Shown here in pieces: positions 14,349-64,000 of a DNA stretch of 64,000 nt. The stretch comes from a virus: the IMG/VR virus record IMGVR_UViG_3300031417_000358. One strand, 5' to 3'. The first letter of the stretch is position 1. Every line of letters begins with the position of its first letter. The translations under genes and the position numbers were made by a program. The notes under the pieces were generated by a model, which made no database searches, was not told the origin of the DNA, and saw only the letters and a program-made list of their open reading frames with translations.

Positions 14349-14453
14349 GTGGCCTAAATAGGTATTTCATGGTATACTAAGGGTATCCACTTACCTTCCT
14401 GTATCCATGACAGACACTCCGCGTAAGCGCAAGCCACGCAGTGCCGGCGGCGC
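14349..14453 (+). repeat. ruvB promoter and 5' end, duplicated at 13101-13207
   Basis: Shared ATTTCAT..ATACTAA.GGTATC and CGTAAGCGCAAGCC. Confidence 0.85.
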
Positions 14454-15471
14454 CGAGCAGGCCGCCGCGCCCACGACCATCGTATCCCCTGCAACCCAGC
14501 CCGGGGAGCCCGGCGAAGACCGCGCGCTGCGGCCAAAGCGCCTGGCCGACTACGTTGGCCAGCAGCTCCTGCGCGACCAGCTGGCCATCTCCCTCGAGGC
14601 GGCTTCCGCCCGAGCTGAGGCGCTCGACCATGTGCTGCTGTTCGGACCGCCTGGCCTGGGCAAGACGACACTGGCGCAAATCATCGCGGCCGAGCTCGGT
14701 GTCGGCCTGAAGGTGACCGCGGGGCCGGTGCTGGAGAAGCCGGGCGACATCGCCGTGCTGCTCACGCAGCTCTCGGCAAACGACGTGCTGTTCATCGACG
14801 AGATTCACCGGCTACCCCCGGTGGTCGAAGAAGTGCTCTACCCGGCAATGGAAGATTACAAGCTCGACATCCTGGTCGGCGAAGGCTCCGAGGCGCGCAC
14901 GGTCACCGTGCCCCTGGCGCCATTTACCCTGGTAGGCGCCACCACGCGCGCGGGCAGCCTGACGGCGCCCCTTCGCGACCGTTTCGGCATTACCGGCCGC
15001 ATGGAGTATTACACCGCGCCGGAGCTGGAAGCCATCGTGACCCGGTCCGCCGGGCTACTAGGGCTGGTGCTGCAGCCTGGTGTTGCGCTGGAGGTGGCGC
15101 GCCGCGCGCGCGGGACCCCGCGAATCGCCAACCGGCTGCTGCGCCGGGTGCGGGACTATGCGCAGGTACGCGGCCCGGTCGTAGGCGAGGTTCGACTGGA
15201 GGAGGCGAAGGCCTCGCTGGCGCTGCTGCGCGTGGACCCGGTCGGTTTGGACCAGCAAGACCAGCGGCTGCTGCGCGCGCTCGTGACCACCTACGGCGGC
15301 GGCCCAGTGGGCCTGGAGACGCTCGCCGCGGCGCTGGGCGAGAGCAGCGACACGCTCGAGGACGCGGTGGAGCCGTACCTCATCCAGCAAGGCTACCTGC
15401 AGCGCACGCCGCGCGGCCGTGTCGCCACCGACCTGGCCAAGAGCCACATGTCCAGCATCGAGGAGATTTAG
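14407..15471 (+). CDS. ruvB: Holliday junction branch migration ATPase RuvB
   Basis: [41 protein letters not shown]. Confidence 0.96.
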
Positions 15472-29978: not shown

Positions 29979-30623
29979 TCAGGTCGCGGCGACGCGGGCG
30001 ACATGTTCCATCGCGAGGAGCTCGAAGTCGGCGGTTTCCATCCAGTCCTTGAGGAAGGGCAGCGCGCCGGCGGGCATCATGTCGCGAAGCTTCGTCAGCC
30101 GGGCCTGAATCGGGACGGCCAGGTCGAACATGACATTGCGTACCGCCGTGGCGTCCAGCTCGTTGGCGCGCTCGACGCTCTCCAGGCGCCAGTCTGGGAA
30201 GTGGTTCAGGTAGTAGCTCGACTCGTCCTTGAAGTGTCCAAGCAGCGCGACACGCCGCGCCCCACGCGCCCGGCGCGCGACCGCTTCCTGCACGGCCGCG
30301 ACCCACTCGTCGTTGGTCTGGCAGTCTGGGACGGCCACGAACCGGACCCGCTGCGCGGCGTCTGCCGGCAGCGACAGCGAAACCATCAGCGCGCGTTCCA
30401 GCGCGAGCAGGGGGTTTTTCAAGGTGCGCTCATTGCTGTCCGACCCCAGGACCAATATGACCGTTTTGCCCAGGCGCAGCGCGCGCAGCAGCAGAATGAG
30501 GTGGCCCAGGTGGAAAGGCTGGAAGCGGCCGATGTAGACGACGACGTCGTAATGGAACCCGTTCGCGTCCGCGAGAATGGCCTCGACAATGTTCGGCTGT
30601 CCGCTGAATGCTTCTGATTTCAA
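29979..30623 (-). CDS. NMN adenylyltransferase (NadM-type domain, no Nudix domain)
   Basis: YIGRFQPFHLGH, LGS...RTLKNP, GHFKDESSYYL..FPDW; TTG start inferred. Confidence 0.85.
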   Translation of the reverse strand: MKSEAFSGQPNIVEAILADANGFHYDVVVYIGRFQPFHLGHLILLLRALRLGKTVILVLGSDSNERTLKNPLLALERALMVSLSLPADAAQRVRFVAVPDCQTNDEWVAAVQEAVARRARGARRVALLGHFKDESSYYLNHFPDWRLESVERANELDATAVRNVMFDLAVPIQARLTKLRDMMPAGALPFLKDWMETADFELLAMEHVARVAAT

Positions 30624-30649: not shown

Positions 30650-31414
30650 TTACTGGTCCGGCATCCAGCCGATGGCCCGGTCGAAATCTTCTTGCGACAT
30701 CGGCACACCCACGCGGCAGATGCGCAGGAAAGCGTGACGCGCTTCCGCCGGGGTAGCGTCGGCAATGACCGTCTCCGCCGTTCTCGCGCCGGCAAAGCGT
30801 GCCCGAACCTGGTCCCACAGCTCGAAGAAATCGTCGACCTGGTCGTTGCTGAAACGCTTTGGCCACTCGTGCTGCCACAGCTGACGCACATAGAAGTTCG
30901 CTTCGTGATGCATTTCGGTGCTGGCCGCCGACATGAGCGTCCAGGCCGGCAGGCGCAAGCCAACGGTTGCCTCCGCTTTCGGGACGAATCGAACAGAGCG
31001 CGTCTCGAAGTCCAGCACCAGGCATGCATCGCCCAGCCAGGTTTCGCGCTCAGCCTCGGACACCGGGAAGGGCACCGGCGCGTCATCCCGGCGCATCATC
31101 CACGCAAACGTGGCCAGCCTGTTCTGACCGTCGAGGAGCAGGCAGTACGGGTGGAATGCGTTGACCGCGGATTCGGGGGCCGGAGCGATAGGCCCCAGCC
31201 GGCCTTTCGACAGCTTCGCCAGGTCAGCATGGTTGCCCGGCGCCCACATCAGGAACGCGCCGATGGGAAAGCCGCTCACAATGCTGTCGCACAACGCCTC
31301 GACGTCGTGTTTGGACCAGACATACGGGCGCTGCATCGCCGCGGGCAGCATGCGGCCGGCAGCAACGTCGGCCACCAGCGACATGAGGAAGCTCTGGCTT
31401 TGTTTGACTTCCAT
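30650..31414 (-). CDS. Stand-alone DUF262 (GmrS/ParB-like) protein
   Basis: QRPYVW, DSIVSGFPIGAFLMW, LLDGQNRL. Confidence 0.85.
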   Translation of the reverse strand: MEVKQSQSFLMSLVADVAAGRMLPAAMQRPYVWSKHDVEALCDSIVSGFPIGAFLMWAPGNHADLAKLSKGRLGPIAPAPESAVNAFHPYCLLLDGQNRLATFAWMMRRDDAPVPFPVSEAERETWLGDACLVLDFETRSVRFVPKAEATVGLRLPAWTLMSAASTEMHHEANFYVRQLWQHEWPKRFSNDQVDDFFELWDQVRARFAGARTAETVIADATPAEARHAFLRICRVGVPMSQEDFDRAIGWMPDQ

Positions 31415-34972: not shown

Positions 34973-37318
34973 ATGATGAACACTATCAAGAACCCGTCTC
35001 TGGGCAAGCGCATGCTGTCCGAATCGAAATTTTTCATGGGCTATTCCCGCTGGATGGACAACGCGAAAGCGTACGAAACCTGGGACCAGTCCATTGACCG
35101 CGTCATGGACATGCACGCCAAGAAGTACGGTCCGAAGATGACCCCTGAGCTGAAGGCCTACATGGACAAAGCGCAGAAGGCCTACTCGAGCCAGCTGGTG
35201 CTGGGCGCCCAACGTGCCCTGCAATTCGGCGGCGAGCAGCTGATGAAGCACGAAGCGAAGATGTACAACTGCTCCGTGTCGCATGCAGACCGCATCGCCT
35301 TCTTCCAGGAAGCGATGTACCTGCTGCTGTGCGGCTGCGGCGTGGGCTTCTCGGTTCAGCAGCGCCACGTCTCGAAGCTGCCGCGCATCGTGGCACGTTC
35401 CGAAGACAAGGTGAAGGTCTTCCAGATTCCCGATTCCATCGAGGGCTGGGCTGACGCGTACGGTGTGCTGTTGTCGTCGTACGCTGAGGATGGTGGTACC
35501 TTCCCCGAGTACAAAGGCTACCGCGTGCTGTTCGACTACTCGCTGATTCGTGCCAAGGGCTCGCTGATTTCCGGCGGCTTTAAGGCACCGGGTCCGGATG
35601 GCCTGCGCGCATCGCTGGTCAAGTGCGAAGCCCTGCTGGAGCGGGCGCTGAAGCGTCTCGAAGTGACGACCGTCGGTGCCGCCTGGGACCGTCCTGTTGT
35701 TGCGTCGGAACTGATGGTGCTGAAGGAGGGCTTCGCGCTGCACATCCAGACCCCGGATAAGGGCCTGGAAAGTGCCAAGCTGAAGCCCATCGAGGTCTAC
35801 GACTTCGTGATGCACATGTCGGATGCCGTGCTGTCGGGTGGTGTGCGCCGTTCGGCCACCATCTGCCTGTTCGACAAGTTCGACGACGAGATGATGAAGG
35901 CGAAAACGGGCGACTGGTTCATCCACAACCCGCAACGCGGCCGCAGCAACAACTCCGTGGTCCTGAAAAAGGACGAGATTTCGCGCGAGGAGTGGCATGA
36001 AATCATGCTTTCCGTGCGTGACTTCGGCGAGCCGGGCTTCATCTTCGTGGACGACTACGACTTCTGCTACAACCCGTGCGTCGAAATCGGCATGCGTCCC
36101 ATCTGCGTCGACACCGGTGAGACAGGCTTCCAGTTCTGCAACCTGACCGAAATCAACGGCGGAAAGTGCGTGAGCGAAGAGCTCTTCTATGAAGCGTGCG
36201 AAGCCGGCGCCATCCTGGGTACCCTGCAAGCTGGTTACACCAACTTCAAGTACCTGAGCGACGCCACCCGCCGCATCACCGAGCGCGAGTCCCTCATCGG
36301 CGTGTCCATCACGGGCTGGATGAACAATCCGGGCGTGCTGTTCGATGAACGTATCCTGAAGAAGGGCGCGGAAATCGTCAAGCGTGTGAACCGTGAAGTG
36401 GCCAAGCTGCTGGGTATCCGTCCGGCCGCCCGTACCACCTGCGCCAAGCCTTCGGGCAACGCGTCGGTCCTCCTGGGCACTGCTTCGGGTATCCACGGCG
36501 AACACGCTCCGATGTACTTCCGCAACGTGCAGATGAACATCGACGATGAAGTGGCCAAGCTGATTCAGCGCGTCAACCCGAAAATGGTTGAGAAGAGCGT
36601 CTGGAGCAGCAACGGCACCGACATCGTGGTTAGCTTCCCTGTCATCTCGAAGGAAGGCTCCATCTACAAGTCGGACCTGATGGGCGTCAAGCAGCTGGAG
36701 TTCGTGCGGAAGGCCCAGATGCACTGGGTCGAAAACGGCACCAACGTCGACCTGTGCGTGCACCCGGACCTGCGTCATAACATTTCGAACACCATTTCGG
36801 TGGACGACTGGGATGCCGTGGAAGAGTACATCTTCGAGAATCGCAAGCACTTCGCTGGCATCTCGCTGTTGGCTGCGGCCGGTGACAAGGCATACGCCCA
36901 GGCACCGTTCACCGAAGTCAGCACTGCAGAAGAAATTCTGAAGAAGTACGGCGATGCCAGCATGTTCGCTTCGGGTCTGATTGTTGACGGCCTCGAAGCC
37001 TTCAACGACAACCTGTGGCTGGCTTGCGACACGGCGATGGGTTCGGGCGAACAGCTCGAGGCAGAAGACTCCCGTGACCTGCTCAAGCGTGACTGGGTCC
37101 GTCGCTTCGGGAAGTTCTCCGAGAACTTCTTCGGCGGCAACGACCAGAAGGCTTCCTTCTGCCTGAAGGACTGCTACAACCTGCACAAGTGGGTCAGCAT
37201 CCAACAGACCATGAAGGCCATCGACTTCGCCGAGGCTCTGGCCAAGCGCGATGACGTGGACGCCGACACCCTGGCTTCCCAGGGTTGCGCAGGCGGAGTG
37301 TGCGAAATTACCTTCTAA
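34973..37318 (+). CDS. Ribonucleotide reductase, most like monomeric class II (NrdJ-type)
   Basis: YNCS, GCGVGFSV, GGVRRSA, NPCVEI, FCNLTE, CAKPSGN, C-terminal GCAGGVCE; no beta subunit gene in the window. Confidence 0.88.
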   Translation: MMNTIKNPSLGKRMLSESKFFMGYSRWMDNAKAYETWDQSIDRVMDMHAKKYGPKMTPELKAYMDKAQKAYSSQLVLGAQRALQFGGEQLMKHEAKMYNCSVSHADRIAFFQEAMYLLLCGCGVGFSVQQRHVSKLPRIVARSEDKVKVFQIPDSIEGWADAYGVLLSSYAEDGGTFPEYKGYRVLFDYSLIRAKGSLISGGFKAPGPDGLRASLVKCEALLERALKRLEVTTVGAAWDRPVVASELMVLKEGFALHIQTPDKGLESAKLKPIEVYDFVMHMSDAVLSGGVRRSATICLFDKFDDEMMKAKTGDWFIHNPQRGRSNNSVVLKKDEISREEWHEIMLSVRDFGEPGFIFVDDYDFCYNPCVEIGMRPICVDTGETGFQFCNLTEINGGKCVSEELFYEACEAGAILGTLQAGYTNFKYLSDATRRITERESLIGVSITGWMNNPGVLFDERILKKGAEIVKRVNREVAKLLGIRPAARTTCAKPSGNASVLLGTASGIHGEHAPMYFRNVQMNIDDEVAKLIQRVNPKMVEKSVWSSNGTDIVVSFPVISKEGSIYKSDLMGVKQLEFVRKAQMHWVENGTNVDLCVHPDLRHNISNTISVDDWDAVEEYIFENRKHFAGISLLAAAGDKAYAQAPFTEVSTAEEILKKYGDASMFASGLIVDGLEAFNDNLWLACDTAMGSGEQLEAEDSRDLLKRDWVRRFGKFSENFFGGNDQKASFCLKDCYNLHKWVSIQQTMKAIDFAEALAKRDDVDADTLASQGCAGGVCEITF

Positions 37319-42981: not shown

Positions 42982-43791
42982 TCATTGGCTCCTTGCGTAA
43001 CGGCCAAACGGGCCGGCGCCTTCCGGCTCGAACAGGTCGACCAGCGGCAGCACCACCGGTGCCGGCGATGTGATGATGCCGGTCTGACAGGCCAGGTTGG
43101 CCACGGTCAGCTTGCCCGGCGCCTGGCCAAGTGCCCCAAACACCGCCCCGGTATCGATGAAATAGCAGTTGCCCAGCCGGCGCGCGCCCCCGAACTGCGG
43201 CGTGTGTCCGCAGAAGATGCGGCCGACGCCAGCAACACCGGACGCCACGTTCCTGGTTGCCCGCACGCGACCCCAGAGGGCGCTCTGGATGGTGTGCGCA
43301 TCGCCGCCTTCCAGGCGCGCTACGAAGGTCGGCCAGTCCATACCGACCGGCACCTCGGCGTGCACTAGGCCTACGGTGCCTCGCTCGGTTTCTACTTCCA
43401 TGGCGACCGGCAGGCGGGAAAAGGCGTCGAGCAGCGCCGCGCGGCGCTCAAGCGGCGTCTCCAGCCACCAGCCCATGCCGTTGCGCTCAACGTTGAAGCG
43501 CAGGGCGTCCTGGTCGAGTGTGCCGCTGGCGTACATGTCCAGCACCATCTGCTCGTGGTTGCCGCGAATCGCGAAAACCCAAGGCTGGTTGAGGAACTCG
43601 AGGGCGGCCTGCGAATACCAGCCGCGGTCGACCAGGTCGCCGACAATGAACAGGCGGTCGATGGCCGGGTCGAAGTCGAGCTTTTCCAGCGCCAGTAGCA
43701 CTAGGTCGAAGGTCCCGTGCGCGTCAGCCAGCACGAAGTTGCGGCCCCGCCCGCGGCCGATACGAACGAATATCTTAAAAGGCTGCTTCAT
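42982..43791 (-). CDS. Metallophosphoesterase, PphA/NinI-like Ser/Thr phosphatase
   Basis: DAHG, GDLVDRG, RGNHE, GHTP, IDTGA. Confidence 0.92.
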   Translation of the reverse strand: MKQPFKIFVRIGRGRGRNFVLADAHGTFDLVLLALEKLDFDPAIDRLFIVGDLVDRGWYSQAALEFLNQPWVFAIRGNHEQMVLDMYASGTLDQDALRFNVERNGMGWWLETPLERRAALLDAFSRLPVAMEVETERGTVGLVHAEVPVGMDWPTFVARLEGGDAHTIQSALWGRVRATRNVASGVAGVGRIFCGHTPQFGGARRLGNCYFIDTGAVFGALGQAPGKLTVANLACQTGIITSPAPVVLPLVDLFEPEGAGPFGRYARSQ

Positions 43792-43999
43792 TGTTATCTG
43801 CCTTTCGGCCAGTCGGCGCCAGATGCTCGAGTAAGCCGAAGATGAAAAGGAGCGCGCCCGCAGTGGCACAAACGGACGCTAGTGAGCCGTGGTGGGCATC
43901 GGTAGACGCCAGTTGAGGAAACGCCAGTGCCACCGCAGTAAGAGGTGCGCCCACGAGCATCTCGAGAACAGCAACAAATTGTCGTACTTCGGTATTCAT
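43775..43999 (-). CDS. Small membrane protein
   Basis: Two TM segments; overlaps the phosphatase start. Confidence 0.55.
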   Translation of the reverse strand: MNTEVRQFVAVLEMLVGAPLTAVALAFPQLASTDAHHGSLASVCATAGALLFIFGLLEHLAPTGRKADNNEAAF

Positions 44000-53600: not shown

Positions 53601-55664
<2,064 letters not shown>

Positions 55665-56345: not shown

Positions 56346-58544
56346 ATGGATATGCAAGTGGATATGTTGAGCAGCATGACGCACACGAACGTCGTTCCGC
56401 TCGTTTTTCGCCCGAAGGTAAAGACCGAGGAGTTCGAGCCAGTCATCCTGGCTGCAGCGCCCGACGCAATTCTGGCCATGCCGGAAAACACCCTCCACGA
56501 GAAGGTGCTCAAAGGCGTGGCGGTGCTGAAGTGGGTGATGGCGCGCCACGAAATCTGTTTCAGCTACTCAGGTGGCAAGGACAGTTCGACGGTGCTTTCG
56601 CTGGGGATGGCAGCTGCCGCGCAGCTGCAGGCCGAGGGCAAGACTGTGAAGCGCTTCCTGGTGCTGAACAGTAATACCCAGGTCGAGAACCCGGAAGTTC
56701 TGGCGGTGGTGAACAGCGAGCTGGCTCGCATACGGCAGTGGATTGCGGCACATGGCCTGCCTGGGCACATCCGCATCACCGAGCCGTACCTGCTGAGCCA
56801 GTGGGCCGTCACCATCATCGGCGGACGCAACCTCATCAGTACGCCGCTCACGAACCGGAACTGCACGACGAACCTCAAGTCCGACCCGCTGAACCGCGTT
56901 CGCAAGCAGTTTTTCGGGCCGAACGAGGTCTCGAAGGGACAATTCACTGTCGGGGTCACCGGCGTGCGTTTTTCCGAGAGCGTCGAGCGGGCGGGCAACA
57001 TGGAGAAACGAGCCGAGTCACCCGTGCAGATTGTCCAGACCAGTGCGGACCAGGACGTGTTCCTGGCACCGATTGCAACCTGGTCGACCGACGACGTGAT
57101 GGAGTTCATCGGCCTGGCCGTCAACCGCGATGTTTTACCGGAAGACGAGCGTCTGCCCATCGGCACGTACAGCGACCTGGCGGACGTCTGGCGCATCTAT
57201 AAGGATGCGGAAGGCGAATGCACGGTTGGCCGCGGCGACAAGCCCTCGAAAGGCTGCGGAGCCAGGCACGGCTGTTTTGTGTGTTCTATGGTCAGCAACG
57301 ACCGTTCGATGGATGCGTTCCTCCTCCAGGAGCAATACAGCTACATGGCGCCGCTGGCGGCGTTCAGGGAATACCTGAACAACACCGTGCACGACTACAG
57401 CAAGCGCACCTGGATTGGCCGCACCATCAACGACGGGCATATTGCGTTTGGCCCGGACGTCTACTCGGCAGAGTATGTCCAGGACCTGCTGCGGTATGCG
57501 CTGACGATTGACCGCGATGAGAAGCGCGCAGCTGCGAAGCTGGGCATCGCACCTCGGTTCGAAATCGTCAGCATGCGTGCGCTGGTGGCCATCGACGCGT
57601 TGTGGTCTCTCCAGGCCTTCACGATGCCGTACGCCGCCCTGGCCATCTACCATGACGTTTATGTCAAGGGCAGGTCGTTCGCTGTGCCCTCGGTGCCCCT
57701 GGTGCCGAAGGGGACCTTGCCGGCGACACGCTACATCCCCGTCGAGGACTGGGATGATGGGGCAGCGGGGTTCCTCACGGGCCTTCGCAATCCCCTGCTG
57801 GAGCTGGCGTCGACCCAACCGCGAGAGATAGAAGTCAAGGGTGAGCTGCGCATGGCGATGGGCACGCATAGCGGACCGATGTTCGAGGTCCACGATGAGT
57901 CCGTCGAGATGATTCTGCTGTTCGAGCTGGACCGCCTGGTAGCCCGCTATCACGAGGCAGCCAGGGCAGAAGGGCGCCGCGCCTTCCGCGTGGCCGGCGA
58001 AGCGTACACCTTCTATGCCCAGTACGGTGCCATCTCCCTGGCCCGGTCGCAAGTCGGAGAAGTGGACTCCACCCTGCGTCGTTCCGCCTGGCGCGAACGG
58101 CAAGGGCTGGCAGGCTACAACTACGACCACGACAAGGCCTTCGCGATGTCGCTGGAAAAGCCGGTACCGGTCGCCGCGCGCAAGCGCCCGCCCGTGCCGA
58201 CTGCCGCTGAAATCCGGGAGACCGAGCGTCGTCATCGTCGCAATCTGGTTCACGGCCGGCGCATCCCGCTGGATGTGTTGTTCCGTGAATGGGCGCCGGA
58301 CGTCGCATGGCACCGGGTAGGCAAGCGGGGGCTCACGCTGTATCGGCTCCCGGCGAATTGCCTGCAGAAGGAAAAGAAGCAGTACAGCACCTGCCGGCGC
58401 AAGGGATGGGCCCTCCATCACTGCGTGCATCACGGTGACCTGGTTCGCTTCATCCGGGATAATCCGGACATCGCCCGGCGCGTGGTGGCTCACCGCTCGG
58501 CATCGTCCCGTCCTGGCCGGCAGATGGCACTCTTCGCAGCATAG
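56346..58544 (+). CDS. PAPS-reductase-family (DndC-like) protein with C-terminal extension
   Basis: SYSGGKDS, NCTTNLK, GVRFSES..R, GARHGCFVC; start ATG 56346 after AGAGG. Confidence 0.85.
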   Translation: MDMQVDMLSSMTHTNVVPLVFRPKVKTEEFEPVILAAAPDAILAMPENTLHEKVLKGVAVLKWVMARHEICFSYSGGKDSSTVLSLGMAAAAQLQAEGKTVKRFLVLNSNTQVENPEVLAVVNSELARIRQWIAAHGLPGHIRITEPYLLSQWAVTIIGGRNLISTPLTNRNCTTNLKSDPLNRVRKQFFGPNEVSKGQFTVGVTGVRFSESVERAGNMEKRAESPVQIVQTSADQDVFLAPIATWSTDDVMEFIGLAVNRDVLPEDERLPIGTYSDLADVWRIYKDAEGECTVGRGDKPSKGCGARHGCFVCSMVSNDRSMDAFLLQEQYSYMAPLAAFREYLNNTVHDYSKRTWIGRTINDGHIAFGPDVYSAEYVQDLLRYALTIDRDEKRAAAKLGIAPRFEIVSMRALVAIDALWSLQAFTMPYAALAIYHDVYVKGRSFAVPSVPLVPKGTLPATRYIPVEDWDDGAAGFLTGLRNPLLELASTQPREIEVKGELRMAMGTHSGPMFEVHDESVEMILLFELDRLVARYHEAARAEGRRAFRVAGEAYTFYAQYGAISLARSQVGEVDSTLRRSAWRERQGLAGYNYDHDKAFAMSLEKPVPVAARKRPPVPTAAEIRETERRHRRNLVHGRRIPLDVLFREWAPDVAWHRVGKRGLTLYRLPANCLQKEKKQYSTCRRKGWALHHCVHHGDLVRFIRDNPDIARRVVAHRSASSRPGRQMALFAA

Positions 58545-58859: not shown

Positions 58860-59384
58860 ATGCAAACCGTCAACCAAAACCCGTGCGCAGCCGCTACCGT
58901 CGCCAACCCTGTCAAGGTCTTCCACGCTATCCGCAATATCCAGCTGGAATTCGACCCGTCGGTGGGTGCGGAGTGGGGCGTCGCGTATGCCTACTGCGAA
59001 GATAACAAGCGTATGTCCGAGCTGTTTTCCCATCGCGATGCCGGCACTTTGCCCGAACTGTATGCCAAGCTGCCTTTCACGCGCGGCAAGCAGTCGGTAG
59101 CCTGTGGCGACTGGATGGCCTGCGTGCGCACCAGCGCGCCGACCGCCACTGCCCAGGTCGTTACCGCGGACGACATCGAGCACGTCCTGCAGGAATACAG
59201 CCTGCGCGTCCTGGACACCCAAGGCAAGTCCTTCGAAACGATGGCCGCTGAACTCGTCGACGAACTCGACCTGAGCTCGGTCATCCAGGCAGCTGCCGCC
59301 GCTGACACCCTGACTGCCAAGCAGCAGGCCGTGTTCGACGCGCTCCACACGCTGCTGGTCAAAGAAGGCGTCATCGACTTCTGA
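58860..59384 (+). CDS. Hypothetical protein
   Basis: AGGAGG RBS; CTATAC at 58821. Confidence 0.75.
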   Translation: MQTVNQNPCAAATVANPVKVFHAIRNIQLEFDPSVGAEWGVAYAYCEDNKRMSELFSHRDAGTLPELYAKLPFTRGKQSVACGDWMACVRTSAPTATAQVVTADDIEHVLQEYSLRVLDTQGKSFETMAAELVDELDLSSVIQAAAAADTLTAKQQAVFDALHTLLVKEGVIDF

Positions 59385-59402
59385 TGCGCCCCTAAGCACC
59401 TC

Positions 59403-59434
59403 ACGCCATGCTTCCCGCATGGCGTTTTCTTTTT
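59403..59434 (+). terminator. Terminator, duplicate of 58768-58799
   Basis: Same stem and tail. Confidence 0.75.
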
Positions 59435-59496
59435 AGCTCGGCTGGGCCACGAAATCTCCCGGCGACAGGCTGCGAAAAATGCTGGCAACTATTTTC

Positions 59497-59554
59497 TTGA
59501 CGCAACGTGGTTTTAACACTATACTTTATCGTAAATCGCAATTAACATGTATCT
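59497..59554 (+). promoter_or_regulatory. Sigma70 promoter plus box shared with the NAMPT-like gene
   Basis: TTGACG-17-TATACT, then GTAAATCGCAA..AACAT.TATC. Confidence 0.75.
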
Positions 59555-59564
59555 GGAGCCAGCC

Positions 59565-60425
59565 ATGACCCACCTCGCACTGACCTGTCAAACTCCTTCC
59601 GGCGCGCGTGCCTTCAACATCGAATGCTTTTCGTTCCCGGGCGGGGAGCGCCACGTTCGGCTGCCCGCGGAGGAAATGGAGGCGGCTGACTCGCGCGACT
59701 GGACCATCGAGGCCCGGGTCTATACGCCGGCGGAAATCATGGACCTGCTGCTGGCGACCGATGCTGTGCGACGTGTGATTCCGGCAGGGAGCCGGTTGTG
59801 CCTGCTGATGCCGTACGTGCCCTACGCCCGGCAAGACCGCGCCGCCCTGGAAGGCGAGCCGCTTTCTGCCAAGGTGTTCGACAACCTCATTAATGCCCTG
59901 AACTTTGACCAGGTGGAAATCTGGGACCCGCATAGCGACGTGACGGGCGCGATGCTCAACAACGTACGCATCCGGCGCTCGAAGGAGCTGCTGCAGGCCG
60001 CCTTCGACCAGAAGGGCGCTGGTCACCTGCTGCGCGAGTGTGCCTTCGTGGCGCCTGACGCTGGCGCGCACAAGCGCGTCGCCAAGCTGGCCGAGAAATT
60101 TGGCACCGCCGTCGTTTTCGCTGAAAAGGAGCGCGACCTGGCGACCGGCCGCATCTCGGGGACCCGAGTCCAGGGCGACCTGCCCCAGAAGCCGCTGCTG
60201 ATAGTGGACGACATCTGCGATGGCGGTTGGACCTTCATCGAGCTGGCGCGCGTGCTGCGTGCGAAGACGTCACAACCGCTGTACCTGTACGTCACGCACG
60301 GCCTGTTCACCAAGGGCTTGGACCCGCTCAAGGCCTGCTACGATGGCGTATTCTCGGCAAATTGCCGGGATGCCGCTATCGACCAGCAGCTCGGCATTTT
60401 CCAGGTGGACCAGAAAGCGGCCTGA
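59565..60425 (+). CDS. Ribose-phosphate pyrophosphokinase-like (Prs/Adps-like)
   Basis: FPGGE, PYVPYARQDR, DPHS, PDAGA, VDDICDGG.TF, VTHG; start ATG 59565 after GGAG. Confidence 0.9.
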   Translation: MTHLALTCQTPSGARAFNIECFSFPGGERHVRLPAEEMEAADSRDWTIEARVYTPAEIMDLLLATDAVRRVIPAGSRLCLLMPYVPYARQDRAALEGEPLSAKVFDNLINALNFDQVEIWDPHSDVTGAMLNNVRIRRSKELLQAAFDQKGAGHLLRECAFVAPDAGAHKRVAKLAEKFGTAVVFAEKERDLATGRISGTRVQGDLPQKPLLIVDDICDGGWTFIELARVLRAKTSQPLYLYVTHGLFTKGLDPLKACYDGVFSANCRDAAIDQQLGIFQVDQKAA

Positions 60426-60449
60426 CGTGCGTCGCCGGTGTACCGCCAG

Positions 60450-62615
60450 CTAGGCGCGCGTCGGACCCGCGTGGAGCAGCAGCTCGAATGCAGGTGCCGA
60501 CACCGCCGTTGAGAACAGGTACCCTTGGCCGTAATCGCAGCCTGCCGCCTGGAGCAGCGCCTCCTGCTCGGCGGTTTCGATGCCCTCGGCGACGACTTTC
60601 AGGCCCAGCTTGTGCGCCATGGCAATGATGGACTCGGCCAGTGCCAGGCTTTCCTTTTTGGTATCGATATTCTGGATGAAGCTCTTGTCTATTTTCAGAT
60701 AGTCAATATCGAACTGGGTCAGGTAGGACAGCGCCGAATATCCCGTGCCGAAGTCGTCCAGCGCCACCTGGATGCCCGCGGCCCGGTACTGCGTAAAGAC
60801 CTCGGCCACCCGAGGGGACGCCTGGAGCAACATCCCTTCGGTGATTTCAATGACAACACTACCAGGCAGCAGGGCTTTCTTAGCCATGCGCGACAGCCAG
60901 TGGTCGGAGTTTCGAGCGAGCAGCTGTATCGGTGAGCAGTTGACCCCGACCTGAAAAGCCTGTCCACGGGAAGCCCCCCATTTCCGCGCACAATTCATGG
61001 CTTCGTCGAACACCCAGTCGCCAATTTCATGGATGAGCCCGGACTCCTCTGCGAGAGGAATAAAATCTGCTGGACTGACGGCGCCGTATCGCGGATGTTC
61101 CCAGCGCAAGAGAGCTTCAGCTTTGACAATCAGGCCCGACTGCAGCTCGACGATAGGCTGGTAATGCACCTGCAGCTGTTTTGCCGTGAGCGCCTGGCGC
61201 AGGTCGTGTAGCAGCTCTACCCGGCGCTGCGCGGCGTCCTTCATCGCCTTGGTGAAGAACCGGAACTGGTTGCGGCCGGCATTCTTGGCCGCGTACATCG
61301 CTTGGTCGGCATTACGAATCAGGTCCTTGGAGTCGGTACCGTCCTTCGGGTACATCGTAATGCCGATGCTGGCCGACAGGTGTATCACATCGTCCTGCAA
61401 GTAAAACGGTGCCGCTATCCGGTTGATGAGCTTTTGCGCGGTCTGCGCGACATTGGCCGTGCCATGCAAGTCAGGCAGCAGCACCGTAAACTCGTCCCCG
61501 CCACGCCGCGCTACCGTATCCGAGTCGCGCACGCAGCTTGCGAGGCGCTGCGCAACCTGAACCAGCAGTTGGTCGCCAATGTCATGCCCGCGTAAATCGT
61601 TCACCTCCTTGAATCGGTCCAGGTCGATGAACAGTAATGCGAATTCCACACCTTCCCGAGCGCCACGTCGAATCTCACTTTCCATCCGGTCGCGGAAGAG
61701 CCGACGGTTTGATAGCCCGGTTAGGTGGTCGGTGGTGGCGTAATGCCAGATAGTCTCCTCTGCTTCTTTCTTTTCTGAAATATCGGTCAACGTCCCTGTT
61801 AAACGCAGAGCCTGGCCGTCTTGGTCACTGGCCACTACGACACCCCGGCTCAAGACCCATTTGTAGCTGCCGGTTTCGCACCGCATGCGGTACTCAATAT
61901 TGTATGGTGGTCCGCCCTGCAGCGTTCCCCGCAAAGCCGCCATCACGCGGTCGTAATCATGCGGATGGATGGTCTCGGTCCAGGCCTCAAACGTGGGCAT
62001 CGGGTCATCGCTGGTGTAACCCAAGATTTCCTTATAACGGTTCGACCGAAATACCTGTCCAGTTTTTACGTCCCAGTCCCAGACCCCGTCGCGGGCGCCT
62101 TCAATCGCAAACATCCAGCGCTCGGTACTGACGCGCAGCGCGTCCTGCGCCAACTTGTGGTCTGTGACATCGTTTCCTTGGATAAATACACCAAACACCC
62201 TGCCTTGAGCGTCAAAAAGGGGCTGGAATACGAAATCGAAATAACGGTCGACCCAATCTCTGGTGGGGGACGTAAGCTGGACTTTCGCGTGCATCTGGCG
62301 GCCCACGAATGGCTTTCCAGATTGAAAAACCTGGCTTGCCAGGGCTACGTACTCAGGCAATTCGGGCACCGCCTCCCGGGCGGGCTTGCCCAGTAACTCG
62401 CGATGGCCCAACAGCTCGTAGTAGGCCGGGTTCACCAGCTTGAAAATGAGGTCTGGGGTTTCCACCAGGGCATTGAAGCCTGGCGCCTGCTCGAACATGA
62501 CACGAAGGCGGGCAGCTTCCTCGTCGCTCAAGGGACTTCTCATATCGGTTGGACTGGCCGCGGCCGCGCTGCCGGCGCCAGCAGGCGAGGGCCTAGCGGG
62601 ATTCTCGTGTTTCAT
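60450..62615 (-). CDS. PAS-PAS-GGDEF-EAL diguanylate cyclase/phosphodiesterase
   Basis: DGVWDWD PAS, GGDEF, EALLRW, DDFGTGYS. Confidence 0.95.
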   Translation of the reverse strand: MKHENPARPSPAGAGSAAAASPTDMRSPLSDEEAARLRVMFEQAPGFNALVETPDLIFKLVNPAYYELLGHRELLGKPAREAVPELPEYVALASQVFQSGKPFVGRQMHAKVQLTSPTRDWVDRYFDFVFQPLFDAQGRVFGVFIQGNDVTDHKLAQDALRVSTERWMFAIEGARDGVWDWDVKTGQVFRSNRYKEILGYTSDDPMPTFEAWTETIHPHDYDRVMAALRGTLQGGPPYNIEYRMRCETGSYKWVLSRGVVVASDQDGQALRLTGTLTDISEKKEAEETIWHYATTDHLTGLSNRRLFRDRMESEIRRGAREGVEFALLFIDLDRFKEVNDLRGHDIGDQLLVQVAQRLASCVRDSDTVARRGGDEFTVLLPDLHGTANVAQTAQKLINRIAAPFYLQDDVIHLSASIGITMYPKDGTDSKDLIRNADQAMYAAKNAGRNQFRFFTKAMKDAAQRRVELLHDLRQALTAKQLQVHYQPIVELQSGLIVKAEALLRWEHPRYGAVSPADFIPLAEESGLIHEIGDWVFDEAMNCARKWGASRGQAFQVGVNCSPIQLLARNSDHWLSRMAKKALLPGSVVIEITEGMLLQASPRVAEVFTQYRAAGIQVALDDFGTGYSALSYLTQFDIDYLKIDKSFIQNIDTKKESLALAESIIAMAHKLGLKVVAEGIETAEQEALLQAAGCDYGQGYLFSTAVSAPAFELLLHAGPTRA

Positions 62616-62944
62616 GTTGTTCTTTGTTCAATTTGACCTTAATTCCCGCAAGCAATAAACCGGGACGGTAGACTTAGAGCTCGTGATTCTTTCAAAAGTT
62701 TTCAACATTTTCACGAAACAATTGACAATTGTTGCGCCAAATCGCCTTTGCCTGCCCAGCTGTGCCAGAAGGGCGGGTATTGCCATCTTAGTACCCCTCG
62801 CGGGATAAGCGAGCACCGTTGCATCTCAGAAATGACATTGCCCGGCTGTACCAAGGAAGCCGACGCGCACTTGCGCCTCAGCCAAGTACGCAGGCAGCAA
62901 AAATCGCTTCTGATACCAGAATGAATTTTCTTCGACAATGTTGC

Positions 62945-63001
62945 TTGACATCAATGCTATTAAGCACTATACTTAGTTGTAAATCGCAACAAACATATAT
63001 C
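62945..63001 (+). promoter_or_regulatory. Sigma70 promoter plus box shared with the Prs-like gene
   Basis: TTGACA-17-TATACT, then GTAAATCGCAA..AACAT.TATC. Confidence 0.8.
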
Positions 63002-63018
63002 ACCACTGAGAGAGCAAC

Positions 63019-64000
63019 ATGAACGCCCCATTCGCATTCGCCAAAACCCTGAACGGTACCATCCCGATGAACCTCGCCGACTTCTACAAGACCGGCCACC
63101 CGGGCATGTACCCGGAGGAGACTGACCTGCTGGTGGCCAACTGGACGCCGCGCGCCGACAAGTACGCACCGGTGGCGCTCTCTCCGCTGTACGACAGCAA
63201 GGTCGTCTGGTTCGGTATCACCGGCTTCATCAAAGAATTCCTCATCGACACGTTCAACCGCGACTTCTTCCAGAAGCCGAAGGCCGAGGCCGTGCGCAAG
63301 TACAAGCGTCGCATGGACACCGCGCTGGGCCTGAACAAGGTAAAGATGACGCAGCTGGAAAAGCTGCATGACCTGGGCTACCTGCCGCTGGAAATCCGCT
63401 CGCTGCCAGAAGGTTCGCGTGTCAACATCAAGGTCCCGCCGGTCGTGTTCCTCAACACGAACGATGCCTTTCCCTGGGTGTCGACCTACTTCGAGTCCCT
63501 GTTCAGCTGCGAGAGCTGGAAGCCGTCCACGGTCGCAACCATCGCGTTCGAGTTCCGCAAAATCCTGACCTACTTCGCGCACCTGACCGGCTCGCCGCTG
63601 GACTTCGTCAACTGGCAGGGCCACGACTTCTCGATGCGCGGCATGAGCGGCGTGCACGATGCGATGCGCTGCGGCGCCGGCCACTTGCTGTCGTTCTTCG
63701 GCACCGACACCATTCCGGCCATCGACTACCTCGAAGACTACTACGGCGCCAACAGCGATACCGAGCTGGTCGGCGGCTCCGTGCCGGCGACCGAGCACAG
63801 CGTCATGACCCTGCGCATCCTGCTGTGGGTCAAGCGCCTGGCTCGCGACCCGGCCAATGCCGGCAAGAGCGAGAAGGAACTGCGCAAGATGGCCGAGCTG
63901 AACGTCATCCGCGAGCTGGTCACCGAGCTGTTCCCATCGGGCATTGTATCCATCGTGGCCGACTCGTTCGACTTCTGGAACGTCATCACCAACATCGCCG
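63019..64000 (+). CDS. Nicotinamide phosphoribosyltransferase-like (NadV/Namat-like), truncated by the window end
   Basis: Translated by hand: DFYKTGH..MYP, HDFSMRG, GTDTIPA, PATEHSVM, GIVSIVADSFDFW; no stop, so missing from the ORF track. Confidence 0.92.
   Translation, partial: MNAPFAFAKTLNGTIPMNLADFYKTGHPGMYPEETDLLVANWTPRADKYAPVALSPLYDSKVVWFGITGFIKEFLIDTFNRDFFQKPKAEAVRKYKRRMDTALGLNKVKMTQLEKLHDLGYLPLEIRSLPEGSRVNIKVPPVVFLNTNDAFPWVSTYFESLFSCESWKPSTVATIAFEFRKILTYFAHLTGSPLDFVNWQGHDFSMRGMSGVHDAMRCGAGHLLSFFGTDTIPAIDYLEDYYGANSDTELVGGSVPATEHSVMTLRILLWVKRLARDPANAGKSEKELRKMAELNVIRELVTELFPSGIVSIVADSFDFWNVITNIA

What the first reader, a model, noticed from the sequence alone, without database searches (positions are those of the whole stretch)
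59565..64000. Dispersed NAD+ reconstitution capacity (NARP1- and NARP2-like) alongside NAD+ consumers
Seen: Prs-like (59565), NAMPT-like (63019 onward, with an apparent ~20-aa insertion after EHSVM) and NMNAT (29979) genes, plus LigA and two ART-like genes. Established: phage NARP1 (Prs-like Adps + NAMPT-like Namat) rebuilds NAD+ from ADP-ribose and nicotinamide, and NARP2 (Nampt + Nmnat) uses PRPP; both counter NAD-depleting defences such as Thoeris and SIR2 systems. Inference: a probably non-phage element carries parts for either or both routes, to survive NADase immunity and fuel its own ARTs and ligase. The sequence alone does not tell Adps/Namat from Prs/Nampt.
Basis: partly seen in the sequence, partly recalled or inferred. 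Interest (0 to 1): 0.78.

Follow-up and report, generated by a model that had tools for sequence, protein, structure and literature searches.

The report
NrtR-controlled NAD+ rebuilding gene pair
The Prs-like and NAMPT-like genes are a bacterial copy of the known two-enzyme route that rebuilds NAD+ from ADP-ribose and nicotinamide, with its usual ADP-ribose-sensing repressor gene just past the window end; here it sits on a large plasmid-like element and is split by an unrelated signalling gene, so it is a new member of a known kind.

Summary
The genes are real. This is the long-known prs-nadV-nrtR cluster. In 79 of 80 related genome loci the two enzyme genes are adjacent, and 72 have nrtR beside them.

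- The NAMPT-like protein carries the published Namat adenine-clamp motif (GSFLYQFNTRD). Its best solved relative is SPbetaL1 Namat.
- The Prs-like protein lacks the canonical Prs C-terminal module and groups with phage Adps.

So the NARP1-type reading is supported by sequence; no enzyme activity was tested.

The NARP2 reading is not supported. There is no PRPP-type Nampt, and the NadM-type NMNAT lies 33 kb away without the shared operator-like site. LigA is solid. The two ART-like genes reach only sub-threshold scores.

Both enzymes nest deep inside a betaproteobacterial clade (nearest: a Massilia MAG), so this is not a recent phage import. The host element looks like a megaplasmid, but this is unproven.

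Unusual here: a PAS-GGDEF-EAL gene lies between the two enzyme genes, and each gene keeps its own promoter and operator-like site.

This scan has already noted the same module in at least 20 other genomes.

The parts
59497..59547 (+). Promoter and operator-like site of the Adps-like gene: TTGACG (59497-59502), 17-nt spacer, TATACT (59520-59525), then core CGTAAATCGCAA (59530-59541)
   Evidence: Promoter scan scores 10 of 12. The exact core occurs only at the three promoters of this cluster in about 74 kb. It aligns with the Massilia MAG promoter.
59565..60425 (+). Adps-like gene (Prs paralogue), 286 aa; probable ADP-ribose pyrophosphokinase
   Evidence: 180-192 bits to phage Adps-type proteins against 66-76 bits to canonical Prs. 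Same side of a 100% supported long branch as validated SPbetaL1 Adps. Lacks the canonical Prs C-terminal module; K188 aligns with SPbetaL1 K162.
60450..62615 (-). PAS-PAS-GGDEF-EAL gene (721 aa) on the opposite strand between the two enzyme genes; inserted cargo, not part of the pathway
   Evidence: Pfam EAL 1e-72 and GGDEF 1e-53. No such gene lies between the pair in any of 80 related loci.
62945..62995 (+). Promoter and operator-like site of the Namat-like gene: TTGACA (62945-62950), 17-nt spacer, TATACT (62968-62973), then core TGTAAATCGCAA (62978-62989)
   Evidence: Promoter scan scores 11 of 12, the best in the region. Motif search; alignment.
63019..64000 (+). Namat-like gene: first 327 of 587 codons. 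The gene ends 782 bases past the window and is followed by nrtR (227 aa) 140 bases further on.
   Evidence: Full gene read from L001 and L003. Clamp motif GSFLYQFNTRD at residues 478-488. Best PDB match is 9W5W SPbetaL1 Namat at 460 bits, against 167 (Xcc Nampt) and 151 (mammalian). Tree.
29979..30623 (-). Stand-alone NadM-type NMN adenylyltransferase, 214 aa, no Nudix domain; unlinked to the cluster
   Evidence: NF010365 and NF003791 at 1e-37 to 3e-38. PDB 2QJO and 2QJT, N-terminal domain only. No operator-like site nearby.
53628..55664 (+). NAD+-dependent DNA ligase LigA (678 aa), an NAD+ consumer that releases NMN
   Evidence: NF005932 at 765 bits. It is 47-54% identical both to chromosomal LigA of five betaproteobacteria and to megaplasmid LigA copies.

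Best explanation
The region holds an NrtR-controlled NARP1-type module of bacterial (betaproteobacterial) lineage. The 286-aa Prs paralogue most likely acts as an ADP-ribose pyrophosphokinase (ADPR + ATP gives ADPR-PP + AMP). The 587-aa NAMPT homologue most likely acts as a nicotinamide ADP-ribose transferase (ADPR-PP + nicotinamide gives NAD+ + PPi). Together they would rebuild NAD+ from the two products of NAD+ glycohydrolysis. All three genes (both enzyme genes and nrtR) have a TTGACx-N17-TATACT or similar promoter with the same 12-nt operator-like core. At the enzyme genes the core lies just after the -10 box; at nrtR it overlaps the -35 box. NrtR probably represses all three and releases them when free ADP-ribose rises, which would make the pathway substrate-induced. 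The module sits on a large plasmid-like element and has been split by a PAS-GGDEF-EAL gene without losing either promoter. Shown here: gene identities, family placement, motifs, gene order in relatives and the shared promoter sites. Inferred: enzyme activities, NrtR binding, ADPR induction and the biological role (NAD+ homeostasis, and possibly protection from NAD+-depleting immunity).
For: Namat signature GSXfXfXfTRD, with aromatics at motif positions 3 and 7 (PMC12774641), is present as G478-S-F-L-Y-Q-F-N-T-R-D488; validated KVP40 Nampt and Ralstonia Nampt read GMGG(G/A)LLQQL(D/N)RD. PDB scores: 460 bits to SPbetaL1 Namat against 167 (Xcc Nampt) and 151 (mammalian NAMPT). Trees place both proteins with validated SPbetaL1 Adps and Namat across 100% supported long branches from canonical Prs and PRPP-type Nampt, and both show the same nearest neighbours (Massilia MAG, then Thiobacillus). 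The Prs-like protein lacks the canonical Prs C-terminal module and shares DDICDGG, DPHSDVT and PDAGAxKR with phage Adps-type proteins. Catalytic equivalents K188 (Adps K162) and R350 (Namat R306) are kept. Five betaproteobacterial genomes each hold one canonical Prs plus this paralogue. In 79 of 80 related loci the pair is adjacent, and 72 have nrtR. NrtR matches S. oneidensis NrtR 3GZ5 at 4e-25 and the NrtR_WHD domain. ADPR releases NrtR from prs-nadV DNA in vitro (PMC2330246). A bacterial NARP1 from Paenibacillus foliorum was shown active (PMC12774641). The operator-like core is found only at the three promoters.
Against: No member of this proteobacterial clade has, in the papers I could read, been assayed with ADPR or ADPR-PP. 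Namat also makes NMN from PRPP in vitro (bioRxiv 10.1101/2024.02.11.579819), so a salvage role is not excluded. Clamp motif position 4 is Leu, where Thr or Ser is usual. The Prs-like protein still scores above the cut-off of the general Prs subfamily model TIGR01251. The Prs/Adps tree has only canonical Prs as the contrast group, so the split is partly built in. The strict operator core is found in few relatives and does not show the GT-N7-AC core typical of NrtR sites.
Confidence: 0.7

Rival explanations
1. Classical salvage reading (NARP2-like). The Prs paralogue supplies PRPP, the NAMPT homologue makes NMN from nicotinamide, and the distant NadM-type NMNAT completes NAD+.
For: Standard annotations fit: TIGR01251 above cut-off and PRK09198. 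An NMNAT is present in the window. Namat can form NMN from PRPP in vitro (bioRxiv 10.1101/2024.02.11.579819). This was the 2008 reading of prs-nadV (PMC2330246).
Against: The NAMPT homologue has the Namat clamp, not the Nampt sequence, and lies far from KVP40, Xcc and Ralstonia Nampt. SPbetaL1 Adps showed no Prs-type activity (same preprint). NMNAT is 33 kb away, lacks the operator-like site and is absent within 6 kb of all 80 related loci. Each of the five relatives' genomes searched already has a canonical Prs.
Confidence: 0.15
2. A dedicated counter-defence module of a mobile element. The megaplasmid carries an ADPR-induced NARP1 to survive NAD+-depleting host immunity (Thoeris, SIR2, DSR, short pAgo) on entry or during residence.
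For: The carrier looks extrachromosomal: contig up to 507,881 bp and no held genome. Several genes best match betaproteobacterial megaplasmids. The conjugative 582-kb plasmid pM7012 carries nrtR, prs-like and nampt-like genes together, plus LigA. NARP1 neutralises such systems when expressed (PMC12774641; bioRxiv 10.1101/2024.02.11.579819).
Against: Most relatives are on large chromosomal contigs. AntiDefenseFinder finds NARP1 mostly in non-mobile chromosomal DNA and suggests housekeeping roles (PMC11724313). No rep, par or tra genes were seen in the 75 kb read. There is no functional test.
Confidence: 0.3
3. The module is phage-borne: the window is part of a huge phage or prophage that carries NARP1 as phages do.
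For: The window holds a phage-type class II ribonucleotide reductase with at least 599 IMG/VR relatives at 56-71% identity. A Phage_phiTE_072 domain and an M23 peptidase lie downstream. Jumbo phages such as Phabio carry Adps/Namat pairs with the same insertions.
Against: No capsid, terminase, portal or tail match among the 20 proteins scanned against PHROGs. The nearest IMG/VR Adps relative is only 41% identical. Both enzymes nest inside a bacterial clade, not next to phage sequences. Porin, chemoreceptor, two-component system and GGDEF-EAL genes are unusual for phages.
Confidence: 0.1

Closest known systems
prs-nadV-nrtR operons of Shewanella oneidensis, Acinetobacter sp. ADP1 and Chromobacterium violaceum (Rodionov et al. 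2008, PMC2330246)
   Same: The same three gene families side by side. The Prs gene is a second, divergent paralogue. NrtR belongs to the family shown to be released from prs-nadV DNA by ADP-ribose. Chromobacterium and Acinetobacter copies fall in the same clades as the window's proteins.
   Different: Here a PAS-GGDEF-EAL gene lies between prs-like and nadV-like, each gene has its own promoter and operator-like site, and the carrier looks like a megaplasmid. The 2008 paper read the enzymes as PRPP synthase and NMN-forming NadV.
Phage NARP1: Adps + Namat of SPbetaL1, Bas63 and FADO (Osterman et al., bioRxiv 10.1101/2024.02.11.579819; structures in PMC12774641 and PMC13586617)
   Same: Same two families. 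Namat clamp motif, Adps C-terminal truncation and catalytic Lys and Arg equivalents are present. Identity is 38-45% (Namat) and 38-41% (Adps) to SPbetaL1, Bas62 and Phabio. The two long insertions are shared with Bas62 and Phabio.
   Different: It is not in a phage and has an NrtR regulator, which the phage loci fetched (SPbetaL1, Bas62, Phabio and nine IMG/VR contigs) lack. The genes are not contiguous. The proteins nest in a bacterial subclade. Activity is untested.
Bacterial NARP1 of Paenibacillus foliorum (PMC12774641)
   Same: A cellular Adps-Namat pair; that one was shown to rebuild NAD+ in vitro and to neutralise SPARSA.
   Different: The tested pair is Firmicute and close to SPbetaL1 (54% and 72% identity). 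The window's pair belongs to the proteobacterial NrtR-linked branch, which I did not find assayed.
nrtR / prs-like / nampt-like cluster on conjugative megaplasmid pM7012 of Burkholderia sp. M701 (NC_022995.1)
   Same: Same module (48%, 64% and 35% identity) on a 582-kb plasmid that also carries a LigA copy, amid hypothetical genes.
   Different: In pM7012 nrtR is divergent upstream and the enzyme genes are contiguous, with no GGDEF-EAL insertion.
NARP2: Nampt + bifunctional Nmnat of vibriophage KVP40
   Same: A NadM-type NMNAT is present (about 32% identical to KVP40-like phage NMNAT domains).
   Different: There is no PRPP-type Nampt; KVP40 Nampt is 28.5% identical and lacks the clamp. The NMNAT has no Nudix domain and is unlinked.

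Membership tests
NARP1 (Adps + Namat) | Prs-family protein of the Adps clade, separate from canonical Prs | tested here: met
   Tree: 100% supported long branch. 180-192 bits to phage Adps-type proteins against 66-76 bits to canonical Prs. The contrast group contains canonical Prs only.
NARP1 (Adps + Namat) | Loss of the canonical Prs C-terminal alpha11-alpha12 module (PMC13586617) | tested here: met
   In the alignment the segment DTIPLS...AE..RI of E. coli, Massilia and Chromobacterium Prs is absent. Length is 286 aa against 315-342 aa.
NARP1 (Adps + Namat) | Catalytic Lys of Adps (SPbetaL1 K162) and catalytic Arg of Namat (SPbetaL1 R306) | tested here: met
   K188 and R350 align with them.
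NARP1 (Adps + Namat) | Namat homologue within ten genes of adps | tested here: met
   It lies 2.6 kb downstream with one gene between. The two are adjacent in 79 of 80 relatives.
NARP1 (Adps + Namat) | Namat clamp helix motif GSXfXfXfTRD with aromatic residues at motif positions 3 and 7 (PMC12774641) | tested here: met
   GSFLYQFNTRD, residues 478-488, with F480 and F484. Position 4 is Leu rather than Thr or Ser. Nampt controls read GMGG(G/A)LLQQL(D/N)RD.
NARP1 (Adps + Namat) | Clamp loop (beta1-beta2) with Arg, Lys or Tyr at its third residue | tested here: inconclusive
   TPRADKYAPV aligns with SPbetaL1 TPRTSRVEDI, placing K48 (followed by Y49) at the Arg position. I could not see the paper's figure, so the loop boundaries are my reading.
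NARP1 (Adps + Namat) | ADPR is converted to ADPR-PP, and ADPR-PP is preferred over PRPP | not testable with these tools
   Needs enzyme assays.
NARP1 (Adps + Namat) | Counters NAD+-depleting defence systems | not testable with these tools
   Needs co-expression or infection assays.
NARP2 (Nampt + Nmnat) | NAMPT homologue of the PRPP-preferring clade (KVP40 type) | tested here: not met
   The only NAMPT homologue found in the 75 kb read is in the Namat clade.
NARP2 (Nampt + Nmnat) | Nmnat encoded in the same genome | tested here: met
   29979-30623, NadM-type, but with no linkage or shared operator-like site.
NrtR regulon (prs-nadV-nrtR) | NrtR protein (Nudix-like domain plus winged helix) next to the target genes | tested here: met
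   227-aa gene 140 bases after the Namat-like gene. NrtR_WHD at 1.4e-11; 3GZ5 at 4e-25.
NrtR regulon (prs-nadV-nrtR) | Conserved palindromic operator upstream of target genes (typically 21 bp, GT-N7-AC core) | tested here: inconclusive
   A 12-nt core YGTAAATYGCAA occurs only at the three promoters, with similar sites in L012, L020 and L047. The palindrome is imperfect and the GT-N7-AC core is not evident.
NrtR regulon (prs-nadV-nrtR) | ADP-ribose releases NrtR from DNA | not testable with these tools
   Needs gel-shift assays.

The most novel reading that the evidence does not exclude
A megaplasmid uses an ADP-ribose-sensing NrtR switch to turn on NARP1 only when a host NADase defence fires, which would make it an inducible, plasmid-borne counter-defence. 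The c-di-GMP gene lodged inside the cluster and the unlinked NMNAT (recycling NMN released by the element's own LigA) would then belong to a wider element-encoded NAD+ economy.
Probability: 0.15. Interest if true: 0.6.

Novelty: new member of a known kind. Interest (0 to 1): 0.3.

Why it matters
It adds a plasmid-like carrier and an unusual split arrangement to the NrtR-linked bacterial branch of NARP1. It also shows that published sequence signatures can separate Adps/Namat from Prs/Nampt without experiments. Pairing a repressor whose family senses ADP-ribose with a pathway that probably consumes it gives a simple, testable circuit for what NARP1 does in bacteria, a question the published papers leave open. 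The module itself, its occurrence in bacteria and its detection outside prophages are already described. This scan has met it in at least 20 other genomes, so the gain is incremental.

Tried and rejected
- A near-identity DNA search of 59000-64000 against plasmids found nothing.
- No whole genome is held for the window.
- An exact-protein look-up with the long ORF start failed; the called 286-aa protein worked.
- IMG/VR holds no close relative of the Adps-like protein (best 41%) and none of a 362-aa unknown protein.
- Viral contigs sharing the ribonucleotide reductase share nothing else with the window; the tblastx hits outside that gene were noise.
- The Massilia MAG locus is syntenic only over the three cluster genes.
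- A strict operator pattern was found upstream of only 2 of 81 relatives' nampt-like genes; looser inspection showed similar sites only in the closest relatives and in those with the same gene order.
- PADLOC gave no defence-system match for the ART-like or neighbouring unknown genes.
- I did not fold the proteins. The Adps structures named in PMC13586617 did not appear among the PDB hits, so a fold comparison would not have discriminated.
- I considered a nicotinate-type variant, a lead from earlier notes. The window's protein keeps the GTD Asp found in SPbetaL1 Namat and in the Nampts. From my own knowledge this Asp corresponds to human NAMPT D219, which sets nicotinamide specificity.

Full report
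**What is there**

The window is 62% G+C and comes from a phyllosphere metagenome. The Prs-like gene is 59565-60425 (+). Its 286-aa product is P0001 in the protein collection. It hits the Prs N-terminal, phosphoribosyltransferase and Prs-associated Pfam domains, and TIGR01251 at 127 bits.

The NAMPT-like gene starts at 63019 and runs off the window. Two metagenome contigs identical to the window over 14,436 bases give the whole gene (587 aa) and, 140 bases later, a 227-aa gene with an NrtR winged-helix domain. That protein's best solved relative is the Shewanella oneidensis NrtR, 3GZ5, at 4e-25.

Between the two enzyme genes, on the other strand, lies a PAS-PAS-GGDEF-EAL gene (60450-62615). 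LigA (53628-55664) is unambiguous. The NMNAT is 29979-30623 (-), with a probable TTG start. It is a NadM-type adenylyltransferase domain without a Nudix domain. The two ART-like ORFs reach only sub-threshold ART-PolyVal scores.

**It is the known prs-nadV-nrtR cluster**

A scan of one genome per species found 267 relatives of the Prs-like protein. Among the 80 best loci:
- 79 have the NAMPT-like gene immediately downstream; the exception is cut by a contig end.
- 72 have nrtR adjacent.
- None has an NMNAT within 6 kb.
- None has a GGDEF-EAL gene between the pair.

These loci are mostly on large chromosomal contigs of Achromobacter, Chromobacterium, Paraburkholderia, Duganella, Roseateles and Thiobacillus. 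The nearest is an uncultured Massilia MAG, at 76%, 87% and 58% identity for the three proteins.

Five of these genomes each hold exactly two Prs-family genes: a canonical Prs (63-68% identical to E. coli Prs) and this paralogue (27-32%). This is the arrangement Rodionov et al. described in 2008 (PMC2330246). They also showed that ADP-ribose releases NrtR from prs-nadV DNA, and they called the dedicated Prs paralogue unexplained.

**Adps/Namat or Prs/Nampt? Sequence does tell**

Lan et al. (PMC12774641) define a Namat-specific clamp helix motif, GSXfXfXfTRD, in which the aromatic residues at motif positions 3 and 7 stack on the adenine of ADPR-PP.
- The window's protein reads G478-S-F-L-Y-Q-F-N-T-R-D488.
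- Validated SPbetaL1 Namat reads GSFTYQYNTRD.
- Validated KVP40 Nampt and Ralstonia Nampt read GMGG(G/A)LLQQL(D/N)RD.

Against solved structures, the full protein scores 460 bits with SPbetaL1 Namat (9W5W/9W5X). It scores 167 bits with Xanthomonas Nampt and about 151 bits with mammalian NAMPT. In a tree, PRPP-type Nampts sit across a 100% supported long branch from a clade that holds SPbetaL1 Namat, other phage Namats and all the prs-linked bacterial proteins. The window's protein sits deep in a betaproteobacterial subclade.

The Prs-like protein behaves the same way:
- It scores 180-192 bits with Bas62, Phabio and IMG/VR phage proteins, against 66-76 bits with canonical Prs.
- It lies on the Adps side of a 100% supported long branch.
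- It lacks the C-terminal module that Liu et al. (PMC13586617) call a defining loss of Adps.
- It shares DDICDGG, DPHSDVT and PDAGAxKR with phage Adps-type proteins, where canonical Prs has DDMxDT, DLHAxQIQGFF and PDxGGVVRAR.

K188 and R350 align with the residues whose mutation kills SPbetaL1 Adps and Namat. The two trees give the same nearest neighbours, so the pair has evolved together.

One caveat applies to the Prs tree: only canonical Prs was available as the contrast group. A second caveat is general: I found no assay of a member of this proteobacterial branch.

**The insertion**

The stretch after EHSVM is about 28 aa longer than in SPbetaL1 Namat, KVP40 Nampt and Ralstonia Nampt. The same insertion is present in the Massilia MAG, pM7012, Chromobacterium, phage Bas62 and phage Phabio. 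It is absent in Achromobacter xylosoxidans and Acinetobacter. It is a lineage feature within the Namat clade, not a peculiarity of this gene.

**Regulation**

The two best sigma-70-like matches in 59350-63050 lie just upstream of the two enzyme genes: TTGACG-17-TATACT at 59497 and TTGACA-17-TATACT at 62945. Four bases after each -10 box comes the core YGTAAATYGCAA.

In about 74 kb (window plus the downstream contig) this core occurs exactly three times. The third copy is inverted and overlaps the -35 box of the nrtR promoter. The Massilia MAG promoters align with them. Pigmentiphaga and Achromobacter anxifer, which share the adps, namat, nrtR gene order, also have a site before each enzyme gene.

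I read this core as the NrtR operator. However, the palindrome is imperfect and the GT-N7-AC core typical of NrtR sites is not evident. No such operator-like site precedes the NMNAT or LigA genes.

**The carrier**

- No genome is held for the window, and the longest contig with P0001 is 507,881 bp.
- The first 15 kb look cellular: RNase R-like, porin, amidase, chemoreceptor, two-component system and RuvB genes.
- RuvB is only 64-65% identical to that of five betaproteobacteria, and equally distant from all five. LigA is 47-53% identical. The NAD+ cluster is much closer to the Massilia MAG than these are.
- Of 20 proteins scanned against PHROGs, none matches a phage structural family.
- The PAPS-reductase/DndC-like protein, a 362-aa unknown protein, the NMNAT and LigA have their best plasmid matches in betaproteobacterial megaplasmids (Azospira, Variovorax at about 800 kb, Cupriavidus, pM7012).
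- The conjugative 582-kb plasmid pM7012 carries nrtR, prs-like and nampt-like genes, plus LigA.
- Against this, the class II ribonucleotide reductase belongs to a family with at least 599 IMG/VR relatives at 56-71% identity, and a phiTE_072 domain lies downstream.

I therefore call the carrier plasmid-like, unproven.

**Function**

The most likely function is substrate-induced rebuilding of NAD+ from ADP-ribose and nicotinamide. Whether that serves homeostasis or protection from NAD+-depleting immunity cannot be decided here. Homeostasis is favoured by the chromosomal distribution of relatives and by PMC11724313, which finds NARP1 mostly outside mobile DNA.

The NMNAT fits better as a recycler of the NMN that LigA releases than as a NARP2 partner. 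LigA and NMNAT also co-occur on the Variovorax megaplasmids. This is inference only.

**Novelty**

The pieces are already published:
- bacterial NARP1 (PMC12774641, and the Osterman et al. discussion);
- its abundance in Acinetobacter chromosomes (PMC11724313);
- the NrtR operon (PMC2330246).

I found no paper in the library that joins NrtR sensing and ADPR-PP chemistry explicitly. Earlier agents of this scan have noted that link in at least 20 other genomes. What is particular here is the plasmid-like carrier, the GGDEF-EAL gene inside the cluster, and the separate promoter and operator-like site kept by each gene.

Noticed in passing
window 34973-37318 (+): A 781-aa class II (RTPR-like) ribonucleotide reductase with no Pfam hit at 1e-3. 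It has a strong PHROG match (phrog_367, 2e-88) and at least 599 relatives on IMG/VR viral contigs at 56-71% identity. The viral contigs share nothing else with the window.
   Followed up: partly
window 14407-15471, 53628-55664, 752-2770; L003 11473-12696: Housekeeping-like genes that are unusually divergent. RuvB is 64-65% identical to five betaproteobacteria alike. LigA is 47-54% identical. An RNase R-like gene and a PurA-like gene score far below their NCBIfam cut-offs (PurA-like 128 against 402 bits). This suggests accessory copies on a giant extrachromosomal element.
   Followed up: partly
window, 36 sites (for example 59519, 62967): CTATAC occurs 36 times against 6.4 expected. At the two NAD+ genes it is part of a TATACT -10 box, 17 nt after a TTGACx -35 box.
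   Followed up: partly
window 56346-58544 (+): A 732-aa PAPS-reductase/DndC-like protein. Relatives occur in 2,696 plasmid records, 2,052 of them conjugative; the best matches are betaproteobacterial megaplasmids.
   Followed up: partly
window 30650-31414 (-): A DUF262 (GmrSD N-terminal) protein without the usual C-terminal nuclease half lies directly upstream of the NMNAT on the same strand. It matches PADLOC candidate families PDC-M55C and HEC-05.
   Followed up: no
window 60450-62615 (-): The PAS-PAS-GGDEF-EAL gene has intact GGDEF and EAL motifs. It converges on the Adps-like gene with only 24 bases between the two stop codons.
   Followed up: no
window 42982-43869 (-): A PrpA/PrpB-like serine/threonine phosphatase (NF008516, 8e-33) lies next to two RCC1-repeat / He_PIG secreted proteins of about 700 aa each.
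   Followed up: no
L020 and L047 (Pigmentiphaga, Achromobacter anxifer): Relatives with the gene order adps, namat, nrtR also have long spacers and a separate operator-like site before each enzyme gene. Independent promoters therefore predate the GGDEF-EAL insertion.
   Followed up: partly
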